Shown here: piece by piece, positions 15,338-36,176 of the stretch
How positions within the stretch are numbered: the stretch's first letter is position 1
How the letters are laid out: the number at the start of each line of letters is the position of its first letter
Origin: a virus
Taxonomy: Duplodnaviria; Caudoviricetes
Direction: 5' to 3' (one strand)
Virus record (IMG/VR): IMGVR_UViG_2840904412_000002
Location: 1 to 64,000 of that record
DNA: 64,000 nucleotides
The notes under the pieces: generated by a model
Database searches by the model: none
What the model saw: the letters and a program-made list of their open reading frames with translations, nothing else
What the model was told of the DNA's origin: nothing
Position numbers and translations under genes: made by a program

Positions 15338-15349
15338 AGAGGTGAATTT

Positions 15350-16485: not shown

Positions 16486-16497
16486 GGGGAATAAACA

Positions 16498-18387: not shown

Positions 18388-18425
18388 CAGAGGTTCTTCT
18401 GTAGTATATAATAAGGGGGAATTAT

Positions 18426-18946: not shown

Positions 18947-18967
18947 GGAAGAATTTTATAAGTAATC

Positions 18968-19383: not shown

Positions 19384-19391
19384 GTTATGTT

Positions 19392-19946: not shown

Positions 19947-19949
19947 GTT

Positions 19950-22023: not shown

Positions 22024-22389
22024 ATGATTACAATTAAAGATATTATTGAGTTTGTTGAAGAGAACGGGGAGTATGAAAAATTGGAGTTCTTAACTGATAT
22101 TTATAAGCATACTTATACCTATACTGTAGATAACTATACTGTTTATTATGTAACGATTGATAAGGTTTTTTCCTCTAACTTAGTCCTATATAAGAATGAT
22201 GTAATGGTAAATAACTCCTATATCCATAGCAGAGCTTTCTGTGCTGACGTTGAGTTAGATAAGCTACTTAATAAGTCTAATAGTGTACTTGAGGTTATTG
22301 ACTACTATTATAATAAGCGTATGAAAGAAGTTTCTAAAGAGAATGAGAAGAAGCGGTTTTTAAATAAATTCATGAGTAGAGATAATTAA
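22024..22389 (+). CDS. Hypothetical protein (distant paralog of next gene)
   Basis: Shares EVID(Y/F)Y..KFM C-terminus with 22408..22746. Confidence 0.7.
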   Translation: MITIKDIIEFVEENGEYEKLEFLTDIYKHTYTYTVDNYTVYYVTIDKVFSSNLVLYKNDVMVNNSYIHSRAFCADVELDKLLNKSNSVLEVIDYYYNKRMKEVSKENEKKRFLNKFMSRDN

Positions 22390-22407
22390 TAAGGAGGATA
22401 ATAAGTT

Positions 22408-22746
22408 ATGGTTAGTATTAGAGCTGTTATAAACTACATTGTAGCAAATGGAGTAGAAAGAGTTGAAGAATCTAAGGTATCTCATATACTAGACTTGGGT
22501 AATGGTTATAGTATCGAATACATTATTCCCATTAGAATGGTCTATCATGAGGGTATTACTATACGTAAAAGAGGCTTTATTCAAGAGTTTAAAGGGGATG
22601 CTATTGATTATTTAAATGCTCAATTGAAGAAAGAAAATAACATTTACGAAGTCATTGACTTTTATGAGTCAGAGTCTATTAGAAAGGAATTTAATAGACA
22701 GTTAGAATTAGAGGAAGTAGAAAAATTTATGGGTAGACGAGAATAA
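22408..22746 (+). CDS. Hypothetical protein
   Basis: RBS AAGGAGG. Confidence 0.7.
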   Translation: MVSIRAVINYIVANGVERVEESKVSHILDLGNGYSIEYIIPIRMVYHEGITIRKRGFIQEFKGDAIDYLNAQLKKENNIYEVIDFYESESIRKEFNRQLELEEVEKFMGRRE

Positions 22747-22902
22747 AGTATTGTAACTATATTTACTCAAAGGTATTGCTATTTAATACCGTGCATGCTA
22801 TAATGTATATAGTAGTAATGTTGGTATATATCTATGAGATATTGAAAGATGATATTGACAATCACATTATTAATTATAGATAGTATAAAGGAGGAATTAT
22901 AA

Positions 22903-23127
22903 ATGAATTATAAAGAAGTATTAGAGGTTATTAAAAATAATAAACCATGTAAGGTTAGATTTACTGGTAGTACTTTGTTCCTTGCTAATAAGGAATTTAA
23001 TGTAGATACTGATAAAGGTATATTACAGATTGGTGTATCTAGTATTAATACAGACGACTATATTAAATTACAGCGGTATTGTTTAGAAAGAGATGAGTAT
23101 ACCGTAGAAGGTGCTATTTTATTTTAA
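22903..23127 (+). CDS. Hypothetical protein
   Basis: RBS AAGGAGG. Confidence 0.7.
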   Translation: MNYKEVLEVIKNNKPCKVRFTGSTLFLANKEFNVDTDKGILQIGVSSINTDDYIKLQRYCLERDEYTVEGAILF

Positions 23128-23139
23128 GGAGGTATATGT

Positions 23140-23340
23140 ATGGATTATAGAGATTTTATTACTGATTGTATTAGTGGTGGTTATAGTGTGTATATTAAAG
23201 TTACTGATAATAGAGTTCATGTTATTTCAGAAATGGAATCAGTATCCTATCCAAAGAAAGAAATTAATTTATATAACTTAAAATCTTACGTTTATTATAT
23301 GAGTAACTTTGGAAGTCCTATTACAATGGAGGGATTATAA
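23140..23340 (+). CDS. Hypothetical protein
   Basis: RBS AAGGAGG. Confidence 0.7.
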   Translation: MDYRDFITDCISGGYSVYIKVTDNRVHVISEMESVSYPKKEINLYNLKSYVYYMSNFGSPITMEGL

Positions 23341-23726
23341 TGAATAGGGTTAAACTATTAAAATTAATAGAGAATATGGCAGATATAAATAATATTGAAA
23401 TTACAAGTGTAAACTTTTATCCAGAAGCACTAGATATTAACAATAAAGCTAAGATTTGTATGGGTAGTAATTATGTAGTTCATAAAGTAAATGAGGGCGG
23501 TGGTAAAAGATGCTTTACTGTAGGTGAGATGTTAGATGAAGTTTTAGAGTTACTTAAACCTTCTTTTAGCAAGGGTGATTATATCACTAAAGGGGCACAA
23601 TCCGGATTACTTATTAAGATAGGAGTAGATTCTTACAATATTCTAAATGATGACAATGAAACTATCTATTATTATCCCATCTCGTTAAAAGAGTTAGAAT
23701 ATATGGGATGGAGAAAGAGGGATTAG
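23340..23726 (+). CDS. Hypothetical protein
   Basis: Coupled ORF. Confidence 0.7.
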   Translation: MNRVKLLKLIENMADINNIEITSVNFYPEALDINNKAKICMGSNYVVHKVNEGGGKRCFTVGEMLDEVLELLKPSFSKGDYITKGAQSGLLIKIGVDSYNILNDDNETIYYYPISLKELEYMGWRKRD

Positions 23727-23728
23727 CT

Positions 23729-24043
23729 ATGATAAGTTCAAGTCATGCTAAGTACCTATCAGAGATGTATAAAAATAGTGTACATCATGAAACTATAGAT
23801 AGTATTGTAGAAGATGTATTAGATAATATTAATGATGGTATTATTGAAGAAGCTATGAGAGGGAATACAAGTTATCAATATGTTCTTAGGGATTTAAGAG
23901 TAGATAATGAAGTAGAAGATAGAGTTATAGAAGAACTTACTATCTCAGGGTATAGTGTAAACTATGTTAGTAATAGCACAGAGTATCCTTTTATATCCAT
24001 AGATAATTTAGCAGGACTAGATTACTTAGAGATTAAATGGTAA
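23729..24043 (+). CDS. Hypothetical protein
   Basis: ORF with RBS. Confidence 0.7.
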   Translation: MISSSHAKYLSEMYKNSVHHETIDSIVEDVLDNINDGIIEEAMRGNTSYQYVLRDLRVDNEVEDRVIEELTISGYSVNYVSNSTEYPFISIDNLAGLDYLEIKW

Positions 24044-24365
24044 AATAAAGGGTTACTCTATGGTGTTACATTAGAATGATTCTAATCTAGGATTTTAATC
24101 TTTAAACCCTAGGAAAAGTAGTACTAAAATATAGAATCCCTTAGGTATGGGATTCTTATTTTCAAATTTATGAAAAAGTATATAGTATCTCCTAGAGGAA
24201 AGTTTTAATGTACTTAAAATAGCCAATTACTTATTATCATTTAGGGGTATCTAATTGATAATATTGAAAGATACCCGCTTCTAGTACAAATATACGAACA
24301 ATAAATAAATTTACTATATACAGTATTTGATACACTTAATATGTACTTATAAGGAGGTGGGTATT

Positions 24366-24761
24366 ATGCTTACTAGAAGAAGGGTAAAAGATATTCAAAA
24401 TAATATTAAAGAAAAAATAAACGTAGGACATAGTATAGAGTTAAAGGAAGAACAAGAACATTATAGAAGATTGAATACTGATACTTATACCATACATGAA
24501 TTAGATAAGATTATAGAAGAGCATTTAAATAATCTAGAAGATATATCTGTAAATGATTTGAGGATAGATTCTATTTGGTTAGGTACTATTGGTATATACT
24601 ATTACCCAATCGGTCAAAGTATGCAAGAGCAGATATATAGTATAAGAGAACTTAAATATATGAAAAAAAAATTTAAGAAACTAGGATTTAAAGCACAAAT
24701 ATCAAATAGCGATGTGGGATTCACACCTTACATTTATTTAAGATTAATATGGTATATATAA
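24366..24761 (+). CDS. Hypothetical protein
   Basis: RBS AAGGAGGTG. Confidence 0.7.
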   Translation: MLTRRRVKDIQNNIKEKINVGHSIELKEEQEHYRRLNTDTYTIHELDKIIEEHLNNLEDISVNDLRIDSIWLGTIGIYYYPIGQSMQEQIYSIRELKYMKKKFKKLGFKAQISNSDVGFTPYIYLRLIWYI

Positions 24762-25342
24762 GGAGGTATATTAGGAGTCTATATAAATAGGTGTAGGAAG
24801 CGGGTATTTCCTATTTTTTCCTTGACATTCATTATGGTTTATTATATATTAGTATATAAGGAGGAATTAATTATGAAATTAAAAAAAGAACCACAAAATA
24901 TAGATAGATAAGTAGACTTATAACCGCTTCTGTTGTTGAAGCGGTTTTATTATACTCTATTATAGTCTAATTCTTTCATATTTAACGTATACAGGGTTTT
25001 AAATGTATCTAGGTATATTTATACCAAAAAGTACTATCGTTTGTTATACGCCGTCTATGAAGCATATAGAGGGTATTATATTTCATTAAGTGTAGTGTCA
25101 GCTTTCAGGATAATTTTCTTTTCTAGGTAGGTTTATACCTAAAAAGTATTCTTGTTGGGTGACTTATTTATACATATAGTATATATACTATATGTATACT
25201 TTTATAATTTTTTTATTCCATGTAACTCCTATTAGTTACAGAGTTGTAGAGTAAATAATTGAAAATAGTGATTGACATTATATAAGGTATGGTCTATAAT
25301 CAGTAATAGTAGTTATTACTGTATAATATTGGAGTGTTGGTT

Positions 25343-25531
25343 ATGGTTAGTAGTATTATAGGACTTATTTTAGTAGGGATAATTAGCGTAGGTTTAGTAA
25401 GTGTGCTACTGTTTATGTGGTATGTAGCAATTTATACTAAAGATAAAGTATTACTTTCGGTTGCTATATTACTAACAGTTATTCTTGGATTAATTGGTAT
25501 AGGTTCTGTACTCAATTACTTTGGATTATAG
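25343..25531 (+). CDS. Small membrane protein
   Basis: Two TM segments; promoter TTGACA..TATAAT upstream. Confidence 0.65.
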   Translation: MVSSIIGLILVGIISVGLVSVLLFMWYVAIYTKDKVLLSVAILLTVILGLIGIGSVLNYFGL

Positions 25532-25542
25532 GAGGTGAGACT

Positions 25543-25776
25543 GTGGTTATATTTATATTGCATATTATTACGATTATTATCCTAGTAGTATGTTTTTGGG
25601 TACTTCTTTCTTCTAGTAGTCCTTTACATTTCTTAGCATCTGTATTTGTGTATATTACTATTATCAATATAGTAGGTATGTTAGATATAAGTAAGTATAT
25701 TTTAAATGTAATAGGATTCTTCATAATGGCTGTTGGGTTATTGATTCTTTTAATGAGAACAAGGATATATAGGTAG
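25543..25776 (+). CDS. Small membrane protein
   Basis: Hydrophobic; RBS AGGAGGTG. Confidence 0.65.
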   Translation: MVIFILHIITIIILVVCFWVLLSSSSPLHFLASVFVYITIINIVGMLDISKYILNVIGFFIMAVGLLILLMRTRIYR

Positions 25777-25925
25777 TATTTATCCTAGAAAGTAGAATGA
25801 GTGTCAGAAGCGGAGTTTATAAGAGCTGAGGAGGTATGTAAGTAGGAAGCGGTTAAGTATTTCCGCTTCTTTTTTGTTGACAGAGGTTAGGGTAAGTAGT
25901 ATAATGTATGTAGAGGTGATAAGGT

Positions 25926-26162
25926 ATGAAAGTAATAATTAAAGATGTAGAGCTAAGTGAAAATTGTATTGTGTTTAATTCTGTTATTGATGACTTTGGT
26001 ATCATAATTAACCATGATTATGGGTATAATGTACTATGCATTAATAGAGATGAGTCATCGTATGATGATGTAGGAGAAAACTACCTTGTGTATAGTAACC
26101 CACTAACTATTGGTGAACTCAATCGTGATAATAAATCAGTACCTAGTATTTCAATAGTATAA
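25926..26162 (+). CDS. Hypothetical protein
   Basis: Promoter and RBS GAGGTGA. Confidence 0.65.
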   Translation: MKVIIKDVELSENCIVFNSVIDDFGIIINHDYGYNVLCINRDESSYDDVGENYLVYSNPLTIGELNRDNKSVPSISIV

Positions 26163-26240
26163 GAAAAATTTATCACTTATTATAAGAAATAACTATCACA
26201 TTAACTTGACATATGAGTAAAAGTATGTTACATTATATAT

Positions 26241-26645
26241 GTAAGGAAAATAGAATAAAGACCTGAAGAGGATATGTGCAGTCAGTAGCATATCGGAATA
26301 GGGACAATTGATGAGGTGGTAGTGAGCCTCGAGCAACTGACATGAAACTCACAGGGCGGGTATAAGATTGCAATGCTTATACTTTGTAGTAATAGATACA
26401 CTATTACTTCTACCATAGTTGGTGATGGCTACCAGTGCAACAAAGGTCAGGGTGGACTCATAGATTCTTAGAATCGGGGTAGCATTTACCTATTAAGTTA
26501 GGTTACACGGATATGAGTGTGTGTAAAGATGTTAACAAAATGATACTAAACCAAGCCTATACTGAAAAAGTATAGATTAAATTCTCTAGTATTAATAGTA
26601 TACTTGTTATACTAGGGGGTTTAATCTACCCAGAACCTTCCTGAA
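26241..26645 (+). ncRNA. Candidate ~400-nt structured non-coding RNA
   Basis: TTGACA(26206)-17-TACATT promoter with TG; no ORF; GC-enriched; multiple hairpins. Confidence 0.55.
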
Positions 26646-26912
26646 ATATACTATATACTATTATTAATAATAAACTTCTTTATAATACTACTAATTACTT
26701 CTCACTTATATATATATATATATTACTTACCTTTATATACTTCTTATACAACTTCTTTATAATAACTTATTTCTTATACAATACCAACCATACTATACAG
26801 AATTACTTATAACTATACACTATACTATTATACTTAAGGATAAGTATATACTTTTTTAAGCATAATAAATACCGCTTCTAGTAATTAACTATTGAAGCGG
26901 TTAATGAGACTT

Positions 26913-27638
26913 CTATTCTATTTCATAATAATAGTAATATAAAGAATAGCAAAATTGTCCTTTATGGTTACCTAGTACTACTATAAGTTTTTTATCTACA
27001 TTAATTTCACGTAGTAAGTATGACTCTATTCCTGCAGATATGCTATCTACATCTTCAGAGAAACCTTCCATAATAATAAACTCATCAGCACGTATTCCTC
27101 CTAAATATCCGTCTTTCTTTTTTATAGTAAAATTATTCATAGGATGAAAATCTAATAGTACATCTAAATCTTTTAGGTTATTGCGCATTGTGTATTCATA
27201 ACTTTTAGATAATACTTCTTCAATATTGTTCTCATTAAGTTCTACATTTAGTATATTAATAGATTCTTTATTTAATCTATCAATAAATGTAAGTTTACCT
27301 TGTTCTATTAAAGGCATATATAGTTTGTTATTCCTAATAGAATGTAAGCTGAACCTATTCATAGCATCCATAGGTATATCTGTTGTAACAAATACATCAT
27401 TGTATACGTGACTTTTTACTGCACTTTCATATATAAATTGGTCTCTGGTACCACTATATTTATCTGGTGATTCATTACCTACGTGTAAATACATTTTATA
27501 CTGTGGTAAATGAAAACTAGGACTAGAATAATAAGACTTTCCATTTATTTTTACTTGCTTCCTTCTGGGATATTGATAAACGATATTCTTAGCTTCAAAA
27601 AACTTTTCCCATTCTAATTCTTTCTCTTTTTTATTCAT
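26913..27638 (-). CDS. Hypothetical protein with degenerate PD-(D/E)xK-like N-terminus
   Basis: WEKFF...YQY...YSSPSFHLPQYKMYLHV; RBS AAGGAG. Confidence 0.65.
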   Translation of the reverse strand: MNKKEKELEWEKFFEAKNIVYQYPRRKQVKINGKSYYSSPSFHLPQYKMYLHVGNESPDKYSGTRDQFIYESAVKSHVYNDVFVTTDIPMDAMNRFSLHSIRNNKLYMPLIEQGKLTFIDRLNKESINILNVELNENNIEEVLSKSYEYTMRNNLKDLDVLLDFHPMNNFTIKKKDGYLGGIRADEFIIMEGFSEDVDSISAGIESYLLREINVDKKLIVVLGNHKGQFCYSLYYYYYEIE

Positions 27639-27797
27639 AAAACTACTCCTTTCTAATAGAAGTGTACCAAACAATAAGATATTTGTCAATACTCTTTCCC
27701 GCTTCTATATAATTATTGAAGGCTATGTCACGAAACTAGACTTTCCTATACAGTTATAGTATACTAGTAATAGGTAATTAATAGGAAGGAGAGGGTT

Positions 27798-28067
27798 ATT
27801 ATCATAATAGATAGTAGTCATTTATCAGATGTACATTTTATAGTTAAAGGTAATACAATAAAAACTAAAGCACTAATTACAGATAATCATGTTTCTTATG
27901 CTTTAGTAGAAGATACAAATCATTTTGATACTGATATGTTCAAGTATGTATTTACATTAGAAGAACCTGAATCAACGATTGTATATCTCAATAACCAGAA
28001 GATAGGGCATACAAAAGAAGATTTATTCAAATTTTCTTATGATTATCTTAAACAATACTTGTTATAA
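27798..28067 (+). CDS. Probable 89-aa ORF with non-AUG start (not in ORF track)
   Basis: Stop-free frame after GGAAGGAGAGG RBS and TAGACT-17-TATACT promoter. Confidence 0.45.
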   Translation: MIIIDSSHLSDVHFIVKGNTIKTKALITDNHVSYALVEDTNHFDTDMFKYVFTLEEPESTIVYLNNQKIGHTKEDLFKFSYDYLKQYLL

Positions 28068-28298
28068 CTATTGACAAAACTTTTCCTGATACACAATTGA
28101 GAATAGAATGATAATACGTTTCGGACGACAGGTATATAATACATTGTAGATTACTTCTGTCGTCCGAAAGCCAAAAAGGAGTAAAATTAGTGTATGTCAC
28201 GAAAAAACGATTTTCAATTAATTACTCTTTATCTATTGACACTCATTCCTTTATACCTTATAATTAAACTATAATCAAATAAAGGGAGAAGATAACTT

Positions 28299-28595
28299 AT
28301 GGAATTATTAAATAGAATTGAACAAGAAGGTTTTGAAATTGAACATATTGAAGACGGGGAATATCTTATTAAAGATATTAATGGTAAGGAAGCGGTACTT
28401 ACGATGGCAGATGGATATGCTATTGTCACCAATAACGAGGGGCTAGAAACTCATATCTATGATAGTAAACCTTCATTAATTATCAGTGAGTTATTAGATG
28501 CTATGAACTATGACTTTGAAAAAGAACAGAAGAAAAAACAATTAGCCAAAGCAAGAAAAAATAAGTTTGATGATTTATTAGAACACTTTGATTAA
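28299..28595 (+). CDS. Terminal-repeat-type early protein
   Basis: Consensus TTGACA..TATAAT promoter, RBS. Confidence 0.7.
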   Translation: MELLNRIEQEGFEIEHIEDGEYLIKDINGKEAVLTMADGYAIVTNNEGLETHIYDSKPSLIISELLDAMNYDFEKEQKKKQLAKARKNKFDDLLEHFD

Positions 28596-28792
28596 TAGAA
28601 TCAATTTTAAACATATCAGTTAAGATAGGCTCTTGAGCTGACGCTAAGGAATTTTTCTCTAAGGGGTTTTATCCTAAAACACATTAAGTTGTAGAAACTC
28701 TAAGTAGACAAGTATAAATTTGGTATAAGAAGCGGAATGTATTTAGGGTAAAACTATAAGTTCCGCTTCTACTATAAAAAGGAGATGTTATA

Positions 28793-28996
28793 ATGAATAT
28801 TCAAGAGGCAAAGGATAAGTTATTTGAATTATTTTTATTAGACTTAAAGGATTATGATAATAATTTACTTGAGGACGATTTATGTAAGTTAGTTGATGAT
28901 ATGGAAGGATTGTTTGATACACAAAACCTTAGATATACTGATAGACATGGAACCGTTTTGTTTATTGAGGACTGGTTAGAGGGTGTAGAACCATAG
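28793..28996 (+). CDS. Early hypothetical protein
   Basis: N-terminus similar to 29117 gene. Confidence 0.7.
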   Translation: MNIQEAKDKLFELFLLDLKDYDNNLLEDDLCKLVDDMEGLFDTQNLRYTDRHGTVLFIEDWLEGVEP

Positions 28997-29116
28997 GATA
29001 AATCATTTACGATAACTTACCTTGAGATAAGTTGAGATACAGTAGGATGCAATAGCTTAGGATGTTAAGATACCTAAGTATAAGTTTAATACTATTATTG
29101 AAAAGGAGGTTTCTAC

Positions 29117-29536
29117 ATGAATAAAGAGCAAGCAAAGAATAAGTTATACGATGAGTTACTTTATACAGTACGTGAGTATGGAGGTACAGAAGCGGATTTA
29201 TTAGAGCTTATTGATAGTTTTAGTTATTTAGACGGGTGGGCTCCGATATTCACGAGTCCAGAAAGAGAACAACACTATTCAATTGAACAATTTCTTAAGG
29301 AACAAAAGCCTGTTTTAGAGAAATACTTAGATAATTTAGATATAGTATATAGTAAAGAAGTAATCAATGGTTATGTAATGTATAGGTTATTCAATGATGC
29401 CCTTATTATAAAACCAGATGAGGATAAGTATAATGTAAATATTAAAGTGGGGAATAGGGAGTTTATTACACTTTCCTTATTATCCTTTACGGATATAACA
29501 GATATTATTATAGGTAATAAAGATAAATTTCAGTAA
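29117..29536 (+). CDS. Early hypothetical protein
   Basis: RBS AAGGAGG. Confidence 0.7.
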   Translation: MNKEQAKNKLYDELLYTVREYGGTEADLLELIDSFSYLDGWAPIFTSPEREQHYSIEQFLKEQKPVLEKYLDNLDIVYSKEVINGYVMYRLFNDALIIKPDEDKYNVNIKVGNREFITLSLLSFTDITDIIIGNKDKFQ

Positions 29537-29728
29537 GTATAATTTAAATCCCTAGAGTGAAATACCTCTAGGGTTATTTTTATTATTTGACTAAGTATAA
29601 ACTAGCTTTCAGAAGTGAAAATAACTAAATACCAAAATGAGTAAGTAGCAGTTTTTGATTAAACCCAAAAATGAGTAAGTAGAGATTAACCTTTCTACCC
29701 GAAAAAGATATTAGGTAATAGATTCCTA

Positions 29729-29743
29729 AATATTCTGACAATT
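29729..29743. promoter_or_regulatory. CodY-box-like site
   Basis: AATATTCTGACAATT, 2 mismatches to AATTTTCWGAAAATT. Confidence 0.45.
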
Positions 29744-29781
29744 TAGACAAAAGGGAGAGCGGTCACAATGACCGCTTACAA

Positions 29782-29997
29782 TTAATTAATTTTTTTATAT
29801 AACTCTGATAATTCTTTTTCTAATTTTTCAATTAGTTTTGTGTCATTATTTTCTTTTGCTCTTCTTAACTTCATTTCACGGATTTTAATGCATCCGCTTC
29901 CTGAAGTCAATTTTCTTTCTAGCTTGTTGTCGTTCAAGTGGTCTAGTTTGCTTTTGCGTCCGTCTAATGTTACCCCAAAGTTTTTTTCATTTTTCAT
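29782..29997 (-). CDS. Basic hypothetical protein
   Basis: RBS GAGG; divergent from 30400 gene. Confidence 0.65.
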   Translation of the reverse strand: MKNEKNFGVTLDGRKSKLDHLNDNKLERKLTSGSGCIKIREMKLRRAKENNDTKLIEKLEKELSELYKKIN

Positions 29998-30153
29998 AAT
30001 TAATCAACCTCTTTTATATATTTTTTGTAGTGGTTTATTATCTCTTCTACACTTATAATGATAAAGCATAACGGCAAAAAAGTAAAGCATTTTTTGGGTA
30101 AAATTTTACACTTTTAAATAGTCGGAATTGTTTTCATATTTAGAACAATTCAG

Positions 30154-30168
30154 AATTGTCTGAAAATT
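30154..30168. promoter_or_regulatory. CodY-box-like site
   Basis: AATTGTCTGAAAATT, 1 mismatch. Confidence 0.55.
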
Positions 30169-30304
30169 TAAACAACTTAAAAAGGTCATCAGTTCCATTA
30201 TATAATAAGAATAAACCTATTGCAACACTTAATTTATTTAACATGTTGTGTATTATGTATTTAATAGTTCGGGTCGTGTTTTTTCTATATAATAGAAAGA
30301 AAGA

Positions 30305-30402
30305 AAAAAGAAATTTAAAAAAGTTAGTCAAAAGGGTTTACAAACTTTAGGGTCTATGTTATTATAACTATAGAAAGTTAATCAAAGGAGGAAAACACTA
30401 TG
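30305..30402 (+). repeat. Early promoter-RBS cassette (copies at ~31062 and ~32411)
   Basis: AAAAGAAATTTAAAAAAG..AAAAGGGTTTACAAA..ATGTTATTATAACTATAGAAAGTTAATCAAAGGAGGAAAACA. Confidence 0.85.
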
Positions 30403-30603
30403 AAACAAGCACAAGCAATTAAAAAATTCATTGAATTAAGAAAAGAACTAAAAGAACAAGGTTATATTATTTCTAAGAAACAGTTACTATCAAATATGGA
30501 AATTTGGTACTTAGATTTAAAAATTGCTTCCCAAATCGAATGGTTCATTAAAACACCTAACGATATTATCATTAAAGATATGAAAGAATTCGGGGACTTA
30601 TAA
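30400..30603 (+). CDS. Early hypothetical protein
   Basis: Promoter cassette plus RBS. Confidence 0.7.
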   Translation: MKQAQAIKKFIELRKELKEQGYIISKKQLLSNMEIWYLDLKIASQIEWFIKTPNDIIIKDMKEFGDL

Positions 30604-30772
30604 TATGATTAAAATTAAGATAGGCAAAAAGAAAATCAAAAGCACCGAAAAAACTGATAACATTTTAATTAGTATTGGGGCTTGCACACTTACAGCAATT
30701 ATGATAAAGTTAATACAACTACAATTTACATTACCACTTGAAACGTGGTTACGATAAGAAAGGAATGATTTT

Positions 30773-31075
30773 ATGACAAAGAAAATAGCACACGATATAA
30801 TGAAAGCATACGACTTTGATGCTTTCAGTGATAACGTGTTTATGCAATATAAGAACAAATTGAATGATACAAACTATCATTTAGAATTTAACGTATTTAG
30901 TGAAGATTGGCTTAACGGGTCAATCGAATTTTATAAGAAAAACAATTTCTTCAAAAAGAATAGAAACTTAAAAACGGGTTGGGCAACATTTAAAAATGGT
31001 TGTACAATCTTAAAGGTAGATAGTACATGCTATGTTATCTTAAATGGTGTACTTATTCACCAAAAAGAAATTTAA
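30773..31075 (+). CDS. Early hypothetical protein
   Basis: RBS AAAGGA. Confidence 0.7.
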   Translation: MTKKIAHDIMKAYDFDAFSDNVFMQYKNKLNDTNYHLEFNVFSEDWLNGSIEFYKKNNFFKKNRNLKTGWATFKNGCTILKVDSTCYVILNGVLIHQKEI

Positions 31076-31271
31076 AAAAATAACAAAAAGGGGTTTACAA
31101 AAACCCCTAGGCATGTTATTATTAATATAGAAGTTAAGGGAATGACACAAACAGAAAAAAACTTAAAAAAGTTTTTGAAAAGTGTTGACAACATAAAAAC
31201 TTCATGGTAATATAAAGATACAAGGTAACCAAAGCACACGGAAAAATTAAAATGTAAGGGAATTGATTAGA

Positions 31272-31559
31272 ATGAAAAAAAATTATTTATACGTAGAAAC
31301 GCACACAGTACAAGGTAAAGAGATTGAAGTGTTTAGAATTCCAAATGACACAAACGGAAACCCACGTTATGTAGTGCATTTTAAAGACCTTGGCGTTAGC
31401 CTTTGGGACTATGACAATATCAATAAACTATTCGGCTTTAAGAAATACACGGCAAAATGGTTTGGTGGCGGTGTAGTATTCCAAAGTTTCAACATAGCTG
31501 AGACTTTAGAACACGCATTAAGTGAAGTTAATGAAGCGGTAAACTTGAAGCAGAAGTGA
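31272..31559 (+). CDS. Early hypothetical protein
   Basis: NDTNGNPRYVVHF..GGGVVFQSFN; own promoter. Confidence 0.7.
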   Translation: MKKNYLYVETHTVQGKEIEVFRIPNDTNGNPRYVVHFKDLGVSLWDYDNINKLFGFKKYTAKWFGGGVVFQSFNIAETLEHALSEVNEAVNLKQK

Positions 31560-31632
31560 AAAGCCTTAAACAGAAAATTTACGAACTTCAAAACCCCAAT
31601 GAAGTCGAATTTAATATCGAGGAGGATTAATC

Positions 31633-31812
31633 ATGAAATTAGTAACTATAGATTATTTAGAATTCAAAAGATTAGTAGGGCAAGAGATTCGTTTGAAAGA
31701 GAGAATTGAAGAATTAGAGGACGAAATTGAAGGCTTAGAATACGAAAACCATCGATTAAAGAAGGTACTATTAGAAGAAAGAAATCAGTGTAACAACCGC
31801 TTCTCACATTAA
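31633..31812 (+). CDS. Small coiled-coil protein (59 aa, not in ORF track)
   Basis: RBS GAGGAGG; MKLVTIDYLEFKRL... Confidence 0.65.
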   Translation: MKLVTIDYLEFKRLVGQEIRLKERIEELEDEIEGLEYENHRLKKVLLEERNQCNNRFSH

Positions 31813-31836
31813 ATAAATTAATTGGAGTTGATTATT

Positions 31837-32190
31837 ATGTTACGTAAGGAACTTTTAGATATGTTAGAAGTCAATTGTGATAGCTATCTATCACAATATA
31901 CAATAAGAAAAGAACTAAATTTAAATGAGGAATTTTATGATTCTACTGATTTAAATAAATTATATATAGAAACTAGAATTAAATCTATCGAGAAATACCT
32001 TAAAATTAAATCAATAGATTATGAAACAGAATTATATTTAAATCGTTATTGTTATGATAGTGATAAAATCTATTTAGTGATTAATCACGAGGGAAGATTG
32101 ATTAACATTACAATAAATAGGGAACAATTCATCAATGATGAGATAGAATTCATTTTTGATTTAGTTGATGAAGAGATTAATTTAGACTAG
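31837..32190 (+). CDS. Early hypothetical protein
   Basis: ORF followed by terminator. Confidence 0.7.
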   Translation: MLRKELLDMLEVNCDSYLSQYTIRKELNLNEEFYDSTDLNKLYIETRIKSIEKYLKIKSIDYETELYLNRYCYDSDKIYLVINHEGRLINITINREQFINDEIEFIFDLVDEEINLD

Positions 32191-32223
32191 AATGTATTTT
32201 CTAGTCTTTTTCTTATTATTTTA

Positions 32224-32238
32224 AATTTTCAGAAAATT
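32224..32238. promoter_or_regulatory. Perfect CodY consensus box
   Basis: AATTTTCAGAAAATT. Confidence 0.6.
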
Positions 32239-32504
32239 CATAATTGTTTCTACAAAACGAGCCTCTCCACTTCCTATTATACGGGAAAGCTCCCCGATTG
32301 TCAATACTTTTCTTCAAAATAATTTATTTAAAAAGTTTCATAAATCTATTGACTTTTATATCACTATACTGTAATATATAAAGTGTAATAAGGAAGCGGA
32401 ACACTTAAAAAAAAGAAATTTAAAAAAGTTAGTTAAAAGGGTTTACAAATAAGAATATACATGTTATTATAACTATAGAAAGTTAATCAAAGGAGGAAAA
32501 CAAT

Positions 32505-32642
32505 ATGAGATACGAGATTGGAGCATTAGTTAATGGAGAATTGTTCATGTTTTCTACATTCAAGAAAGAAGAGGCAGAAAAGCAGTACCAAGAATGGTGC
32601 GAACGCTTTGGAAAAGAAAACGTAACTATGGAGGTGTCTTAA
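32505..32642 (+). CDS. Small early protein (45 aa, not in ORF track)
   Basis: Promoter cassette plus AAGGAGG; MRYEIGALVNGELF... Confidence 0.65.
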   Translation: MRYEIGALVNGELFMFSTFKKEEAEKQYQEWCERFGKENVTMEVS

Positions 32643-32809
32643 ATGTTCAACCTCTTACACAAACAAACTAAAAAAGAAATTAAGCAAATGAAGCGGGCTC
32701 AAAAAAGAGCCCAAAAAGAATTAAAAAAAATTGTAGAAAAGTGTTGACATTCTACAATATACATGGTATTATTAAGGTAACAAATAAATCAATAAAGGAA
32801 ATGATAAAA

Positions 32810-32941
32810 ATGAAAAAAATCACAACAACCTTAAACTTAATCGGTATGAAAAATAATGAAAGGTTTACAGAAGAGTTAAAAAACTACCGTCAAGATGTTA
32901 CTTTCTTGAAAGCAAATAAAATTGTAAAATATTCAAAATAA
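32810..32941 (+). CDS. Small early protein
   Basis: Own TTGACA promoter and RBS. Confidence 0.6.
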   Translation: MKKITTTLNLIGMKNNERFTEELKNYRQDVTFLKANKIVKYSK

Positions 32942-33012
32942 GGCTTGACAACTTAAACACTACATGATATTATTAAGATAACAAAAAACAAACAGAAAAG
33001 GAATTGATAAAA

Positions 33013-33294
33013 ATGAAAAACACATTAAACAACGTAATTGAAATACTAGAAAGCAAAGGGTACGACTTTGAATATGATGAAACTATAACAGTATTAGAAA
33101 TTACAAGCCCTAGTGGTGCTTATGAGGATATTACACCTAGGTTTATACGTGACGGAAGAGTCGAGAGTACCTTTATTATTCCAGACTTTTTAGATGAGGA
33201 CTTAGGGAACGTATGTGTAGACTTTTACAGCTACACTTTAAACTTCCCTAGTAATAAAGAACTACTGAAAGAAATTGAAAATATTTTTAAATAA
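33013..33294 (+). CDS. Acidic early protein
   Basis: Own promoter and RBS. Confidence 0.7.
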   Translation: MKNTLNNVIEILESKGYDFEYDETITVLEITSPSGAYEDITPRFIRDGRVESTFIIPDFLDEDLGNVCVDFYSYTLNFPSNKELLKEIENIFK

Positions 33295-33456
33295 GTGTTG
33301 ACAATCACTTGAAACCATGATATTATAAAGATACAAGGTAAGGGAAGCGGTCAACCGCTTCCAACCTAGTAAAAAAGTTTTAAAAAGGTATTGACAACCT
33401 ATAATCTATATGGTATTATAATTATAGAAAGAAAAAAAAACAAATAAGAAAAGGAT

Positions 33457-33795
33457 ATGATGAAAATGTTAGAAAATTACACAGTACAAGAGTTAAGAGA
33501 AATCGTAGCAGAGGTTAACGGATATGATGGCAGTTTAGAAGAGCTTGACTATATGGATATTGGAACACTTGATGAAATCCTTAGCGGTGTGGAACCTACA
33601 GAGGTTTTAAGAATGGCACACTTTGGAGAATTTGATTGGTCAGACGATTATGTTAAAATAGACGTATACGGAAATTTAGAAAGCGTTAGTAACTTTGAAT
33701 TTGAAAAACTTGTAAAAGATAGCCATGATGAAATTGTAGAACGCTACAATGAACTTGTGGAAGACGGGGATATTGAACCAATCGAATTTATTTAA
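33457..33795 (+). CDS. Acidic early protein
   Basis: D/E-rich; own promoter. Confidence 0.7.
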   Translation: MMKMLENYTVQELREIVAEVNGYDGSLEELDYMDIGTLDEILSGVEPTEVLRMAHFGEFDWSDDYVKIDVYGNLESVSNFEFEKLVKDSHDEIVERYNELVEDGDIEPIEFI

Positions 33796-33933
33796 TCATT
33801 GTTAAGATATCCACCGCTTAGGTGGTGGGTATCTCATAGAGTGATTAAATTTAAAAAAAGTATTGACACTCTAGAAAATAGATGGTAATATAAGAGTATA
33901 GAAAAAATAAAAAAAGAAAAGGAATTGATTATT

Positions 33934-34284
33934 ATGAACAACACATTAAACACTATCGAAATGAACGTCGAATACTTAGGCACTAAGTGGGTAAATGGTT
34001 GGGAACACAACGCCTATAATGTAGCACTAACACATAATGGTGTTACAGAGGAGTTTATCTGGAAGCAAGGACTAGGGATTCATAAGGAACCCTCTCTTGA
34101 AAGGGTTTTAGAACACCTTATTAAAGAGTCATATTATTATGAAGAGGACATTTACGATATGTATGATGACCCTGAAATAGCAGAAAAAGTTATAGAGCAA
34201 TTAAAAGAAGAAGAGGAAAAGTTAAATAATTTATTTTCTGAATATGAATTAGAAGAGTTCTACTCCTTTTACTTTGAAGATTAG
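33934..34284 (+). CDS. Acidic early protein
   Basis: E-rich C-terminus; own promoter. Confidence 0.7.
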   Translation: MNNTLNTIEMNVEYLGTKWVNGWEHNAYNVALTHNGVTEEFIWKQGLGIHKEPSLERVLEHLIKESYYYEEDIYDMYDDPEIAEKVIEQLKEEEEKLNNLFSEYELEEFYSFYFED

Positions 34285-34364
34285 AATTCATAGAAGCGGT
34301 TGACAAACTAACCGCTTCATGTTATTATAAAGGTAACAAAAAAACAAAATAGGAGTTGTTTATT

Positions 34365-34967
34365 ATGAAAAAAACACTAGAAAAAGCAATCGATGCCTTA
34401 ATAGGCGCATCAGCAGATACAATTGAAAAGGACGTCTTATACTGGTTAACTGGTGAGGACGTTGATACGCTAGATGAGGCTATTAACCTCCTTGAGAATG
34501 TCTCATGTGAAGCGGGAGACGTAAACCACCTTGTATACACATCTGATTGTATTAATTGGGTGTTAGAACACGAGGAGGCTATTATAGACTTTCTCAATGC
34601 TAATATTGATGACGAGGTAGACTCGTTAGACGATATTTCTTGGGAGCAACACAACCAAATAAATTCTATTATTACTGGTTGGGAGTCTGGGGACGATAGA
34701 GTAAGTCGTTTCAATAGTGATAATTGGGACGAGGCAGAAGATTCCGCTATTGAGAGTATCGGTCAGGAGGAATGGAATTCTCTTGACGAAATGGAAAGAG
34801 ACGATGTGATTCAGGGGCAGTTGAACTTCATGCTCTATACGGAAGCACCGCTAGACATAGACAAACACGACTATGTAGAGTTAGCACACAGTACATTCGA
34901 GTATTATGCTCATGTACTGTTAGCCGGTCAGTTAGAGGGCATTAAAGAAGTGATTGAGGAGGAGTGA
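34365..34967 (+). CDS. Highly acidic early protein
   Basis: D/E-rich, GC higher than flanks. Confidence 0.75.
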   Translation: MKKTLEKAIDALIGASADTIEKDVLYWLTGEDVDTLDEAINLLENVSCEAGDVNHLVYTSDCINWVLEHEEAIIDFLNANIDDEVDSLDDISWEQHNQINSIITGWESGDDRVSRFNSDNWDEAEDSAIESIGQEEWNSLDEMERDDVIQGQLNFMLYTEAPLDIDKHDYVELAHSTFEYYAHVLLAGQLEGIKEVIEEE

Positions 34968-34988
34968 ACCTCCTCTTTTTTTACAGGG

Positions 34989-35012
34989 AATTGTCTAAAT
35001 ATTCTGAAAACT
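34989..35012. promoter_or_regulatory. Two CodY-like boxes overlapping by 6 bp
   Basis: AATTGTCTAAATATT + AATATTCTGAAAACT upstream of TTGCAA promoter at 35051. Confidence 0.5.
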
Positions 35013-35131
35013 TAAACTTTTAAAGAATGTGGATTTTTTGTAAAAAACTATTGCAATTCTAAACGTAATATAGTAATATAATAGATGTAGAGGAGATACC
35101 TCACAAAATAAAATTTTAGGAGTTGGTAATT

Positions 35132-35431
35132 ATGAAACAATTTATAATGGCGGTTGAATATGAAGACGGACGTTTAGGTTACGTCCGCATGTACTTCGAG
35201 GGCTACGAGCTCTTAGAGGTGCAGGAGGTTGTTTTAGGTCACGAGGACATGCCTCCACGCTTTGAGGTTGAGGTGGACGAGATAGCGGACTATCTCGGAT
35301 TTGCCTACCTCGAGGAAGAAGACCAATTTGGGCGCTTCTTCGGTGAGTGGTTGGCTCTTGGTGAATCTTGTGACGTGCCTAGTGATTTCCTCGAGGACGA
35401 GGACGGATATTTAGTAGAGGAGGTGGAGTAA
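35132..35431 (+). CDS. Highly acidic early protein
   Basis: E/D-rich, GC-rich codons. Confidence 0.7.
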   Translation: MKQFIMAVEYEDGRLGYVRMYFEGYELLEVQEVVLGHEDMPPRFEVEVDEIADYLGFAYLEEEDQFGRFFGEWLALGESCDVPSDFLEDEDGYLVEEVE

Positions 35432-35635
35432 ATGACAGAGGGCAAAGCAAGAGAATACGCTGAACGTCTTATAAACGCTAGTTATTATCTGTGCCCTCAC
35501 GACCTAGTTGGAATGGCTAGTAAGTGGGACGGCATAGCAGACGACATTAGAATAATCGGCGTTGAGTGTTTCAAAAAAGAGTACTTAAAGGGTCTAGAGG
35601 TTGAAACCTTAGAGGTACTCAACAGATACGAGTAA
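35432..35635 (+). CDS. Early hypothetical protein
   Basis: Coupled ORF then terminator AGGCGGTC-AATA-GACCGTCTTTTTT. Confidence 0.65.
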   Translation: MTEGKAREYAERLINASYYLCPHDLVGMASKWDGIADDIRIIGVECFKKEYLKGLEVETLEVLNRYE

Positions 35636-36176
35636 GGCGGTCAATAGACCGTCTTTTTTATTTGCCTTTATATAGCTTGTATTTAGCCCATATAAGCACG
35701 CTAACCGCTTCTGTATGCTCGGTAATGTTATTGTACCTAGATAGATAAACGTTTGTTAGAGCGTCTATATGAGCTGTATATGACATGTAGAATAGTTTGG
35801 TTCGTTGATTGATACAGTAAAGATTGAATGAATCAATAATATAAATTGAAAGAGGTTAATTAATATATAGTTTTTATTTAGATAAAGGTAGATTATATAA
35901 AAAATATAATTAATAAAATACGGGGGTCGGTAGGAAGCAACATAATCCGTGGCACATTCACCTAGATACACCCCCCACTTAGGGTACTATAGATTTGGCA
36001 TATTTATAACATTTTAATTACAGAAGTCAACATACACTATTTAGGTAGTTACCTCTATAAAGTCAACATTACAAATCTACCCTGTGGGTTAGAAATGTAT
36101 AGTATAAATAGATAGTCCTTAAATATAAAGTCAACATACCTAAAATAAAAAAGAGGTAAATTAAATCCCTCTTCTC

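What the first reader, a model, noticed from the sequence alone, without database searches (positions are those of the whole stretch)
24275..35711. Putative terminal/early region is packed with host Chi sites (GAAGCGG): a cis-encoded shield against AddAB?
Seen: 25 exact GAAGCGG/CCGCTTC copies in 11.4 kb (14 on +, 11 on -), versus 4 in the other ~52 kb (19222, 22350, 38542, 42974; manual count). At roughly 28% GC fewer than one copy is expected in 11.4 kb. Six pairs form inverted hairpins (24924/24938, 25846/25863, 26872/26894, 28729/28763, 33344/33355, 34293/34312), some doubling as terminators, and others lie inside ORFs. Established: GAAGCGG is the S. aureus Chi that attenuates AddAB(RexAB) end resection and limits CRISPR spacer acquisition from free DNA ends; Twort-like phages have long terminal repeats carrying early genes. 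Inference: the phage loads both physical ends with Chi in both orientations, since a terminal repeat is entered from opposite sides at the two ends. This would blunt degradation, limit spacer uptake, and feed RecA-type recombination of the repeats. I do not know whether this has been described.
Basis: partly seen in the sequence, partly recalled or inferred. Interest (0 to 1): 0.9.

Follow-up and report, generated by a model that had tools for sequence, protein, structure and literature searches.

The report
Host Chi array in phage terminal repeat
A large Staphylococcus-killing phage packs its repeated genome ends with the short DNA word that tells the host's DNA-end-chewing enzyme to stop and start repair, most likely to protect and rejoin those ends.

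Summary
GAAGCGG occurs 29 times in the window against 0.63 expected, and 25 copies lie in 24275-35711. The window is a Twort-like Staphylococcus myovirus, closest to vB_SpsM-DH2. By homology to DH2's 14,855-bp identical ends, window 21685-~35980 is the long terminal repeat (LTR) and holds 26 of the 29 copies. The exact heptamer is the top LTR-enriched word. One-mismatch variants are not enriched. In Twort and A5W, 30 of 30 and 38 of 38 copies lie in the annotated LTRs. Five other staphylococcal Twortvirinae records behave alike, although their LTR DNA is mostly unalignable. The heptamers are better conserved than other aligned 7-mers. Two Bacillus subtilis relatives, SPO1 and Goe3, instead enrich (G)AGCGG, which contains the B. 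subtilis Chi. My best reading (about 0.68) is a cis Chi array read by host RexAB/AddAB. It would stop resection inside the redundant ends and prime LTR-LTR recombination. The closest published analogue is the terminally clustered Chi of lambdoid phages (Zheng 2025). I found no description for Herelleviridae. This scan has noted the same pattern before on other phage DNA.

The parts
21685..35980 (.). Long terminal repeat (LTR) equivalent, collapsed to one copy in this assembly. It holds 26 of the 29 Chi heptamers (15 on +, 11 on -).
   Evidence: window 21685 aligns to base 1 of DH2, and window ~35980 aligns to the last base of the DH2 record. The DH2 ends are 100% identical over 14,855 bp; parts of the region match the annotated L-LTR of Twort and of kayviruses (Tre genes).
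22350..22356 (+). Single Chi heptamer.
   Evidence: It is homologous to DH2 site 666.
24275..24281 (-). Single Chi heptamer. It is the first site in the orientation active for entry from the left end.
   Evidence: It is homologous to DH2 site 2592.
24797..24803 (+). Single Chi heptamer, intergenic, 25 bp upstream of a promoter-like site at 24822.
24922..24946 (.). Hairpin whose two arms are Chi in both orientations (24924 on -, 24938 on +). Terminator-like.
   Evidence: -13.8 kcal/mol, z -4.6.
25807..25813 (+). Single Chi heptamer, intergenic.
25845..25876 (.). Chi/Chi hairpin (25846 on +, 25863 on -) followed by a T6 run. A likely terminator just before the promoter-like site at 25877.
   Evidence: -13.3 kcal/mol.
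26871..26901 (.). Chi/Chi hairpin (26872 on -, 26894 on +).
   Evidence: -13.8 kcal/mol, z -3.9.
27699..27705 (-). Single Chi heptamer, just upstream of the minus-strand promoter-like site at 27689.
28389..28395 (+). Single Chi heptamer inside ORF 28299-28595, sense strand, frame 0.
28728..28770 (.). Chi/Chi hairpin (28729 on +, 28763 on -).
   Evidence: -18.6 kcal/mol, z -4.8.
29189..29195 (+). Single Chi heptamer inside ORF 29117-29536, sense strand, frame 0.
29894..29900 (-). Single Chi heptamer inside minus-strand ORF 29782-29997, sense strand.
31533..31539 (+). Single Chi heptamer, at the end of ORF 31263-31559 in the mechanical ORF list.
31797..31803 (-). Single Chi heptamer inside ORF 31633-31812, antisense.
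32393..32399 (+). Single Chi heptamer, intergenic.
32690..32696 (+). Single Chi heptamer, intergenic.
33343..33362 (.). Chi/Chi hairpin (33344 on +, 33355 on -), lying between two promoter-like sites.
   Evidence: -18.1 kcal/mol, z -4.9.
34293..34318 (.). Chi/Chi hairpin (34293 on +, 34312 on -) that encloses a TTGACA -35 hexamer. Terminator-like.
   Evidence: -15.9 kcal/mol, z -5.9.
34509..34515 (+). Single Chi heptamer inside ORF 34365-34967, sense strand, frame 0. It is the last site in the orientation active for entry from the right end, about 1.47 kb from the LTR's right boundary.
35705..35711 (-). Single Chi heptamer, about 270 bp inside the LTR's right boundary.
   Evidence: It is homologous to DH2 site 14579.
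1602..2402 (+). RecA-family recombinase gene of the phage (the Pfam match lies within a 418-aa open frame). It is a possible partner for the 3' tails made at Chi.
   Evidence: PF00154, E 1.6e-29, over the curated cut-off. The same family is found in A5W, Twort and DH2.
19222..19228 (+). Chi heptamer outside the LTR-equivalent, compatible with chance. The sites at 38542 (-) and 42974 (-) are in the same class.
   Evidence: That gives 3 sites in about 58.8 kb outside the LTR, against about 0.6 expected from the shuffles.

Best explanation
Window 21685-~35980 is the long terminal repeat of a Twort-like staphylococcal myovirus. In the virion the repeat sits at both ends of the linear genome, and it carries the early host-takeover genes. 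Selection keeps it loaded with exact copies of the staphylococcal Chi heptamer: 26 here, about one per 550 bp, in both orientations.

The mechanism below is inferred, not shown. When the linear DNA enters the cell, the host helicase-nuclease RexAB (AddAB) loads on the free ends. From the left end it meets the minus-strand copies in the active orientation. From the right end it meets the plus-strand copies. Recognition at any one Chi is only probabilistic (recalled, not from a call), so many copies would make a stop inside the repeat nearly certain. Nuclease action on the 3' strand is then attenuated. A 3' tail made of LTR sequence is left. RecA, either the host's or the phage's own RecA-family protein, pairs that tail with the other LTR copy.

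The proposed result has three parts. The early genes survive. Whatever is nibbled from one end is restored from the redundant copy. Circles or concatemers for replication and packaging are primed.

Putting Chi on both arms of intergenic hairpins, some of which are terminators, gives both orientations in one small non-coding element. A likely side effect is that CRISPR spacer capture from the free ends is confined to the outermost DNA.
For: Shown by computation.

1. Enrichment. There are 29 copies against 0.63 expected. GAAGCGG is the top LTR-enriched 7-mer at 26 vs 3. One-mismatch variants are flat at 12 vs 37.
2. Location. The cluster maps onto the 14,855-bp identical ends of DH2 and onto annotated LTRs.
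3. Generality across staphylococcal Twortvirinae.
   - Twort: 30 of 30 copies lie in the two LTRs, and 0 in the 121-kb unique part.
   - A5W: 38 of 38 copies lie in the two LTRs, and 0 in the 129-kb unique part.
   - DH2: 54 of 55.
   - YCP: 50 of 52.
   - Twillingate: 14 of 15 lie in the first 13.7 kb.
   - Remus: 10 of 11 lie within 8 kb.
   - phiIPLA-C1C: 14 of 14 lie within 13 kb.
4. Independent maintenance. The LTRs of Twort, A5W and Remus share 0-2% alignable DNA, yet each has 10-19 copies. Eight of this window's sites lie in DNA that does not align to DH2.
5. Purifying selection. Chi heptamers are kept more often than other aligned 7-mers.
   - Window vs Twort: 8 of 8 against a 39% background, P 6e-4.
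   - Window vs DH2: 17 of 18 against 69%, P 0.012.
   - DH2 vs A5W: 5 of 5 against 32%, P 0.0035.
6. Host tracking.
   - In staphylococcal LTRs, 73-94% of AGCGG copies carry the GA prefix that completes the S. aureus heptamer. In the SPO1 terminal redundancy only 7 of 46 do.
   - AGCGG is the top 5-mer of the SPO1 redundancy (46 vs 97 in 119 kb).
   - GAGCGG is the top 6-mer in SPO1 (24 vs 14) and in the distantly related B. subtilis phage Goe3 (13 vs 39).
   - Listeria phage A511 has no GAAGCGG in its LTR.
7. Host genomes. GAAGCGG exceeds its reversed control in 21 of 21 Staphylococcus species genomes. Even the densest host, at about one per 2.6 kb, is about 5-fold sparser than the LTR.
8. 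Position at the left end. A correctly oriented site lies between the physical left end and the first annotated gene in each of three annotated records.
   - Twort: site at 247, first gene at 346.
   - A5W: site at 403, first gene at 486.
   - YCP: site at 401, first gene at 485.

From papers.

- GAAGCGG protects rolling-circle plasmid DNA in S. aureus (Halpern 2007, as described in passages of bioRxiv 10.1101/2021.07.08.451572).
- AddAB-dependent spacer-acquisition hotspots in S. aureus stop at chi sites (passages of PMC8860600).
- Lambdoid phages LLS and MD8 carry terminally clustered, correctly oriented Chi, and RecBCD helps their growth (PMC12315714, abstract and sections 6 and 18).
Against: - No experiment links these sites to RexAB/AddAB. 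The same preprint notes that direct interaction of S. aureus AddAB with GAAGCGG, and hotspot activity, had not been demonstrated.
- This phage's physical ends are inferred from a relative whose record is marked UNVERIFIED.
- The phage has its own RecA-family gene. In lambdoid phages, high Chi density goes with having no recombination module.
- About 10 of the 14 sites outside hairpins are co-oriented with the local gene, by my rough gene calls. Six of the 11 minus-strand sites come from hairpins, so an RNA-level or transcription-linked role is not excluded.
- There is no left-right polarity of the two orientations within the LTR.
- In this phage the leftmost 2.6 kb of the LTR has no correctly oriented site. 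The place homologous to DH2 site 240 reads CAGCTTC.
- The staphylococcal and Bacillus Chi share the core AGCGG, so host tracking rests on the 5' extension only.
- Not every pairwise conservation test was significant. A5W vs C1C gave 2 of 4, DH2 vs C1C gave 2 of 4, and Twort vs window gave 7 of 9.
Confidence: 0.68

Rival explanations
1. The heptamer is the binding site of a sequence-specific protein other than RexAB/AddAB. Candidates are a conserved early phage protein, or a host factor used for early transcription, DNA entry arrest or replication initiation. On this reading its identity with Chi is coincidental.
For: The sites are mostly intergenic, with only about 5-8 of 26 in ORFs. Several lie within 60 bp upstream of strong promoter-like sites, and one hairpin encloses a -35 hexamer. 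Single sites are mostly co-oriented with genes. The LTR is the early host-takeover region, where phage-specific control elements are expected (passages of PMC6445280).
Against: - The word is exactly the published S. aureus Chi, and one-mismatch variants are not enriched.
- There is no fixed spacing to promoters; the distances are 7, 14, 25, 36 and 54 bp.
- Both strands are used, and sites also lie inside ORFs.
- The 5' extension changes with the host. It is GA-AGCGG in 8 Staphylococcus phages, and G-AGCGG in two B. subtilis phages of different subfamilies.
- The flanks differ between phages. T follows the word in A5W, and A follows it in Twort.
Confidence: 0.14
2. The array's main selective benefit is to limit CRISPR adaptation, not end protection or recombination. 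Chi close to the entering ends would shrink the stretch from which AddAB-generated fragments feed Cas1-Cas2.
For: In S. aureus, spacer-acquisition hotspots at free ends are AddAB-dependent and stop at chi sites (passages of PMC8860600). Correctly oriented sites lie 240-403 bp from the left end in DH2, Twort, A5W and YCP.
Against: - This reading needs the same RexAB-Chi interaction as the best explanation, so it is a sub-case rather than an alternative.
- One or two sites per end would be enough for this purpose, yet 10-27 are kept across 8-15 kb.
- B. subtilis phages show the same pattern.
- That many staphylococci lack CRISPR is recalled, not tested here.
Confidence: 0.08
3. The enrichment is a by-product. 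A family of related terminator or hairpin cassettes spread through the mosaic LTR, and the heptamer itself has no function.
For: Twelve of the 26 sites form six hairpins. Opposite-strand pairs within 60 bp number 7, against about 1.4 expected from random placement (my arithmetic on the coordinates; hairpins shown). Two or three of the hairpins look like terminators.
Against: - Fourteen of the 26 sites are not in hairpins, and some lie in ORFs.
- Loops and flanks share no sequence beyond about 9 bases.
- The 121-129-kb unique parts of Twort and A5W contain 0 copies, although kayvirus unit genomes have about 30 predicted terminators.
- The heptamers are conserved above background in diverged alignments.
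Confidence: 0.05

Closest known systems
Terminally clustered Chi sites of lambdoid phages without a recombination module (E. coli phage LLS, P. aeruginosa phage MD8; Zheng et al., Genome Res 2025, PMC12315714; abstract and sections 6 and 18 read)
   Same: A phage genome carries the host's own Chi word far above chance. The copies are concentrated next to a physical DNA end and oriented to act on the host helicase-nuclease entering there. This was interpreted as using that enzyme for recombination-dependent growth.
   Different: Those phages are temperate-type cos phages of Gram-negative hosts, and the enzyme is RecBCD. Their Chi is almost all in one orientation near one end (20 vs 3; 32 vs 0), and they lack their own recombination genes. 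Here the phage is a virulent myovirus of Firmicutes and the enzyme would be RexAB/AddAB. The array is confined to a long terminal repeat present at both ends, both orientations are kept (15 vs 11), and the phage has a RecA-family gene.
Phage P1 terminal-repeat recombination by host RecA and RecBCD (as summarised in the introduction of PMC12315714). That P1 is Chi-rich is partly recalled.
   Same: Linear DNA with direct terminal repeats of several kb is injected. Host recombination between the repeats circularises it.
   Different: P1's terminal redundancy is permuted (headful packaging), so no fixed sequence is terminal. Here the ends are fixed and the Chi array sits exactly in them.
Chromosomal Chi of Staphylococcus aureus (5'-GAAGCGG-3') and Bacillus subtilis (5'-AGCGG-3'), acting on RexAB/AddAB (Halpern 2007 and Chedin 1998, as cited in passages of bioRxiv 10.1101/2021.07.08.451572)
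   Same: The sequence is identical. Copies are exact, and near-variants are not enriched.
   Different: The chromosome has about one per 8.4 kb (335 in 2.82 Mb), 90% co-oriented with replication and mostly in ORFs. The LTR has about one per 0.55 kb, in both orientations, mostly intergenic and often paired in hairpins.
Long terminal repeats carrying early host-takeover genes in SPO1, kayviruses and T5 (annotation of MT151386, EU418428 and NC_005859; PMC6445280 passages)
   Same: The genome architecture is the same: a fixed repeat of 8-15 kb at both ends, with small early genes, sigma-A-type promoters and terminators.
   Different: In the papers and passages I saw, no Chi content is mentioned for these repeats. 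T5 has only 2 E. coli Chi per 10.2-kb repeat, and 8 in the genome, so a dense array is not a general property of LTR phages.

Membership tests
Chi site of AddAB/RexAB-type helicase-nucleases | Sequence identical to the host's Chi word | tested here: met
   There are 29 exact GAAGCGG copies. The word is given as the S. aureus Chi in passages of bioRxiv 10.1101/2021.07.08.451572. The host of this particular phage is not known; the closest relative infects S. pseudintermedius.
Chi site of AddAB/RexAB-type helicase-nucleases | The word is over-represented in the host genus | tested here: met
   In 21 of 21 Staphylococcus species genomes there are 198-1032 copies, always more than the reversed control word, at ratios of about 1.3 to 3.7. 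Strand skew by replichore was not properly tested.
Chi site of AddAB/RexAB-type helicase-nucleases | Orientation-dependent recognition by the translocating enzyme, with attenuation of 3'-strand degradation | not testable with these tools
   This needs biochemistry or infection of rexAB mutants.
Phage terminal Chi clusters (LLS/MD8 type, Zheng 2025) | Chi density far above chance and concentrated at a physical genome end | tested here: met
   There are 26 copies in 14.3 kb against about 0.14 expected. All or nearly all copies lie in the LTR in 7 related public records. The ends of this phage itself are inferred by homology only.
Phage terminal Chi clusters (LLS/MD8 type, Zheng 2025) | Copies predominantly in the single orientation active for entry from that end | tested here: not met
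   Both orientations are present: 15 on + and 11 on - here, 9/6 in Twort, 12/7 in A5W and 15/12 in DH2. This fits a repeat that is entered from opposite sides at the two ends, but it is not the LLS pattern.
Phage terminal Chi clusters (LLS/MD8 type, Zheng 2025) | Phage lacks its own recombination module | tested here: not met
   A RecA-family gene lies at window 1602-2402, and the same family is found in A5W, Twort and DH2.
Herelleviridae (Twortvirinae) long terminal repeat | Homology to mapped or annotated LTRs, with small early Tre-type genes and sigma-A-like promoters | tested here: met
   Ten LTR ORFs were tested; 8 match PHROGs of unknown function and 2 match none. Several 11-12 of 12 promoter-like sites are present.
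Herelleviridae (Twortvirinae) long terminal repeat | Physical duplication at both ends of virion DNA (doubled read depth, fixed termini) | not testable with these tools
   All 19 runs found are kept as contigs, not raw reads.

The most novel reading that the evidence does not exclude
Across Herelleviridae, the long terminal repeat may be a dedicated 'self-repairing end' module. Redundant DNA would be loaded with a bidirectional array of the host's own Chi word. This would hijack AddAB/RexAB to stop inside the repeat and to splice the two ends together. Because the array tracks the host (GAAGCGG in Staphylococcus phages, GAGCGG in B. subtilis phages), the LTR-enriched word of such a phage could be used to read out the still unknown Chi of other Firmicutes hosts.
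Probability: 0.5. Interest if true: 0.82.

Novelty: new variant of a known kind. Interest (0 to 1): 0.72.

Why it matters
Kayviruses and their relatives are the main candidates for phage therapy against staphylococci. Yet the first minutes of infection, when naked linear DNA meets host nucleases, are poorly understood.

A cis-acting Chi array in the terminal repeat would be a new counter-defence and recombination element for virulent Gram-positive phages. It would explain why the early genes sit in redundant DNA. It predicts that phage fitness depends on rexAB, and that CRISPR spacer capture has a boundary at the first Chi. It would also guide which non-coding LTR bases should be left alone when such phages are engineered.

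The idea extends the 2025 finding of terminal Chi clusters in lambdoid phages to another enzyme family and another genome architecture. The host-specific shift of the word offers a simple way to propose Chi sequences for Firmicutes in which none is known.

Tried and rejected
- **Read mapping for termini.** The look-up of sequencing runs listed 19 runs, all kept as contigs.
- **Compositional artefact.** Rejected. The shuffles, the k-mer contrast and the flat one-mismatch variants all speak against it.
- **Fixed promoter element.** Rejected, because the distances to promoter-like sites vary.
- **Left-right polarity of the two orientations within the LTR.** None was seen in the coordinates.
- **Other phages with repeats.**
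  - The Staphylococcus siphovirus PMBT8 shares one module with the window but has only 4 copies and no array.
  - T5 has 8 E. coli Chi, 2 per LTR.
  - Listeria A511 has 5 scattered GAAGCGG and none in its LTR. It shows only a weak, post hoc enrichment of AGCGG(G) in its 3.1-kb LTR, 6 vs 2.2 expected and 4 vs 0.4 expected. I treat this as suggestive only.
- **Unsupervised cluster scan.** On Enterococcus phage EF24C it found promoter-like octamers and some G-rich words clustered at 94-106 kb, but no clear Chi candidate. On SPO1 at k=6 it did not recover GAGCGG. On Remus it did recover GAAGCGG as the top word.
- **Host replichore skew.** One search lists only the first places of a genome, so I make no claim about skew.
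- **Prior description.** Searches returned no paper describing Chi in Herelleviridae terminal repeats, judged from listings, abstracts and the passages read. In PMC6445280 the only 'chi' match falls in the reference list, apparently the word 'China'. The Lobocka 2012 review of Twort-like phages is not held. A description in either cannot be excluded.
- **Recalled only.** Modell 2017 and Bobay 2013 were recalled and not seen.

Full report
**Observation.** GAAGCGG/CCGCTTC occurs 29 times in the window. In 100 dinucleotide-preserving shuffles the mean was 0.63 and the largest value was 3. Twenty-five copies lie in 24275-35711 (14 on +, 11 on -). The full 73,070-bp record adds none, and the reversed control word is absent.

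The contexts of the sites share nothing beyond the heptamer, apart from a mild preference for A/G before it and T after it. I contrasted the LTR-equivalent with the rest of the record over all words of 5-9 bases. GAAGCGG is the best 7-mer (26 vs 3), and every leading word at the other lengths is a piece or an extension of it. The score peaks at length 7. The 21 one-mismatch variants are not enriched (12 vs 37, with about 9 expected). So the signal is the exact heptamer, not GC-richness.

The terminator scan flags two of them, and a third is followed by a run of six T. By my rough gene calls only about 5-8 of the 26 sites lie in ORFs.

**What the region is.** All 215 matching phage records are Staphylococcus phages. 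The best is vB_SpsM-DH2 (host S. pseudintermedius). Parts of the region match the annotated left LTR of Twort and the Tre genes of kayviruses. The DH2 record has ends that are 100% identical over 14,855 bp. Window 21685 aligns to DH2 base 1, and window ~35980 aligns to the last base of the record. Window DNA to the left aligns to the right unique end of DH2, and window DNA to the right aligns to its left unique arm.

So 21685-~35980 is the LTR, collapsed to one copy in this assembly. It holds 26 of the 29 copies, about one per 550 bp. Ten LTR ORFs were tested; 8 match PHROGs of unknown function and 2 match none. The region carries many strong sigma-70-type promoter-like sites, as expected for the early host-takeover region (passages of PMC6445280).

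The physical ends of this phage itself could not be checked.

**Relatives.** The pattern holds across the staphylococcal Twortvirinae I examined.
- Twort: 30 of 30 copies lie in the two annotated 9,201-bp LTRs, and none in 121 kb of unique DNA.
- A5W (Kayvirus): 38 of 38 copies lie in the two 8,455-bp LTRs, and none in 129 kb.
- DH2: 54 of 55.
- vB_ScoM-YCP: 50 of 52.
- Twillingate (Sepunavirus): 14 of 15 in the first 13.7 kb.
- Remus (Silviavirus): 10 of 11 within 8 kb.
- phiIPLA-C1C: 14 of 14 within 13 kb.

These LTRs are largely unrelated in sequence. Twort and A5W align over 0% of their LTRs, and Remus aligns to the others over at most 2%. Eight of this window's sites lie in segments that do not align to DH2.

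Where LTRs do align, the heptamers are kept more often than other aligned 7-mers. Window vs Twort gave 8 of 8 against a 39% background (P 6e-4). Window vs DH2 gave 17 of 18 against 69% (P 0.012). DH2 vs A5W gave 5 of 5 against 32% (P 0.0035). GC-matched controls gave the same picture. Weaker or non-significant pairs were A5W vs C1C (2 of 4), DH2 vs C1C (2 of 4) and Twort vs window (7 of 9). These comparisons overlap and are not independent of each other.

Together this shows selection for the word itself and for its number, not inheritance of one repeated element.

**Does the word follow the host?** GAAGCGG is the word reported to protect rolling-circle plasmid DNA in S. aureus, and it is generally taken as that species' Chi. 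It occurs 335 times in 2.82 Mb. The same source cautions that direct action on AddAB had not been shown (passages). In 21 of 21 Staphylococcus species genomes it exceeds its reversed control. The densest genome has about one per 2.6 kb.

In SPO1, AGCGG is the top LTR-enriched 5-mer (46 in the first 13.2 kb vs 97 in 119 kb), with a sharp drop after 12.8 kb. GAGCGG is the top 6-mer (24 vs 14). In Goe3, a B. subtilis phage of another subfamily with a 4,955-bp exact repeat, GAGCGG is again the top 6-mer (13 vs 39).

The 5' context separates the hosts. In staphylococcal LTRs the share of AGCGG copies preceded by GA is 26 of 34 (window), 27 of 35 (DH2), 15 of 16 (Twort) and 19 of 26 (A5W). In SPO1 it is 7 of 46.

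Listeria phage A511 has no GAAGCGG in its LTR and only a weak AGCGG(G) excess. T5 has 2 E. coli Chi per LTR. The staphylococcal siphovirus PMBT8 has no array. The dense array is therefore not a general feature of phages with repeats, or of staphylococcal phages.

**Orientation.** By the rule stated for RecBCD, a top-strand Chi acts on enzyme entering from the right. I apply it to AddAB by analogy. Plus-strand copies would then serve the right end of the right LTR, and minus-strand copies the left end of the left LTR. Both orientations are always present, at 15/11 here, 9/6 in Twort, 12/7 in A5W and 15/12 in DH2.

A correctly oriented site lies 240-403 bp from the left end in DH2, Twort, A5W and YCP. 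In the three annotated records it precedes the first gene. This window has CAGCTTC at that place, so its first active site from the left is 2.6 kb in. From the right, the first active site is 0.56-1.9 kb in.

**Mechanism and its rivals.** The best-supported reading is a cis Chi array that makes host RexAB/AddAB stop inside the redundant ends. This would leave an LTR-sequence 3' tail for RecA-type pairing with the other copy. That protects the early genes, allows nibbled ends to be restored from the redundant copy, and primes circles or concatemers.

Every step after 'the word is the host Chi and is under selection in the LTR' is inference. Points against, or at least complicating:
- The phage has its own RecA-family gene, unlike the Chi-rich lambdoid phages.
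- Single sites are mostly co-oriented with genes.
- More than half of the minus-strand sites come from hairpins.

The rivals are a site for another protein, a mainly anti-CRISPR-adaptation role, and a by-product of hairpin cassettes. They are weighed in their own sections.

**Comparison with what is known.** The concept of a phage enriching the host's Chi near a DNA end was published for lambdoid phages LLS and MD8, and is linked to P1 (PMC12315714). The present case differs in five ways: the enzyme family, the host phylum, the lifestyle, confinement to a long terminal repeat with both orientations, and the presence of a phage recombinase.

Seven literature searches found no description for Herelleviridae. 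The main review of Twort-like genomes is not held, and supplements are closed. I rate it a new variant of a known kind. Earlier notes of this scan report the same pattern in other staphylococcal myovirus windows. I used them as leads only and re-derived the pattern on public records myself.

Noticed in passing
window 36490-37650 (-): The first large gene to the right of the LTR encodes a 386-aa GH20 protein. It is most like solved dispersins (8qb6 'Dispersin', E 1.5e-54; DspB 1yht, E 1.7e-23), which are enzymes that cut the PNAG biofilm polysaccharide. It is conserved in DH2 (the block aligns at 96.8%). A biofilm-matrix hydrolase in a staphylococcal myovirus may deserve its own look.
   Followed up: partly
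G000:C1 1-400 and 72954-73070 (window 1-400): The 73,070-bp record has a 117-bp direct repeat at its ends and is rated 50% complete. Its first ~269 bases match DH2 near 53.8-54.05 kb, and the sequence from 265 on matches DH2 near 115.5 kb. The 'circle' therefore lacks about 61 kb, the block between about 54 and 115.5 kb of DH2. This is either a misassembly or a deletion derivative.
   Followed up: partly
window 21924-21930: Where DH2 has its leftmost correctly oriented Chi (CCGCTTC, 240 bp from the end), this phage reads CAGCTTC, a single-base difference.
   Followed up: yes
L019 (SPO1 1-20000) and L074 (Goe3 1-20000): In two B. subtilis phages of different subfamilies, the LTR-enriched word is the hexamer GAGCGG rather than the bare pentamer AGCGG. 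A G before the pentamer may matter in vivo. The word contains no T, so SPO1's hydroxymethyluracil substitution (recalled) would leave it unchanged on that strand.
   Followed up: partly
L082-L089 (Enterococcus phage EF24C), about 94-106 kb: Promoter-like octamers (CTATTGAC, 24 of 33 copies within 11.8 kb) and G-rich words (AACGGGG, 7 of 9 within 8.5 kb; GAGGGGA, 10 of 14 within 16.8 kb) cluster in one region, probably the early or terminal region. No clear Chi candidate emerged.
   Followed up: no
window 34001-36000: The GC content is 0.384, against about 0.28-0.30 in neighbouring bins. This is the right end of the LTR, including ORF 34365-34967 (weak match to phrog_2543), and it may be a recent acquisition.
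   Followed up: no
window 56748-57653 (-): An endolysin-like ORF has Amidase_2 and SH3b_P2 domains but no CHAP domain within the 301-aa frame. An HNH endonuclease ORF lies at 50619-51698. I did not check whether the lysin gene is split by an intron, as it is in some kayviruses.
   Followed up: no
L071 record (T5, NC_005859): T5 has 8 E. coli Chi octamers, 7 of them on the top strand. Two lie in each 10.2-kb terminal repeat (8127 and 8689).
   Followed up: no
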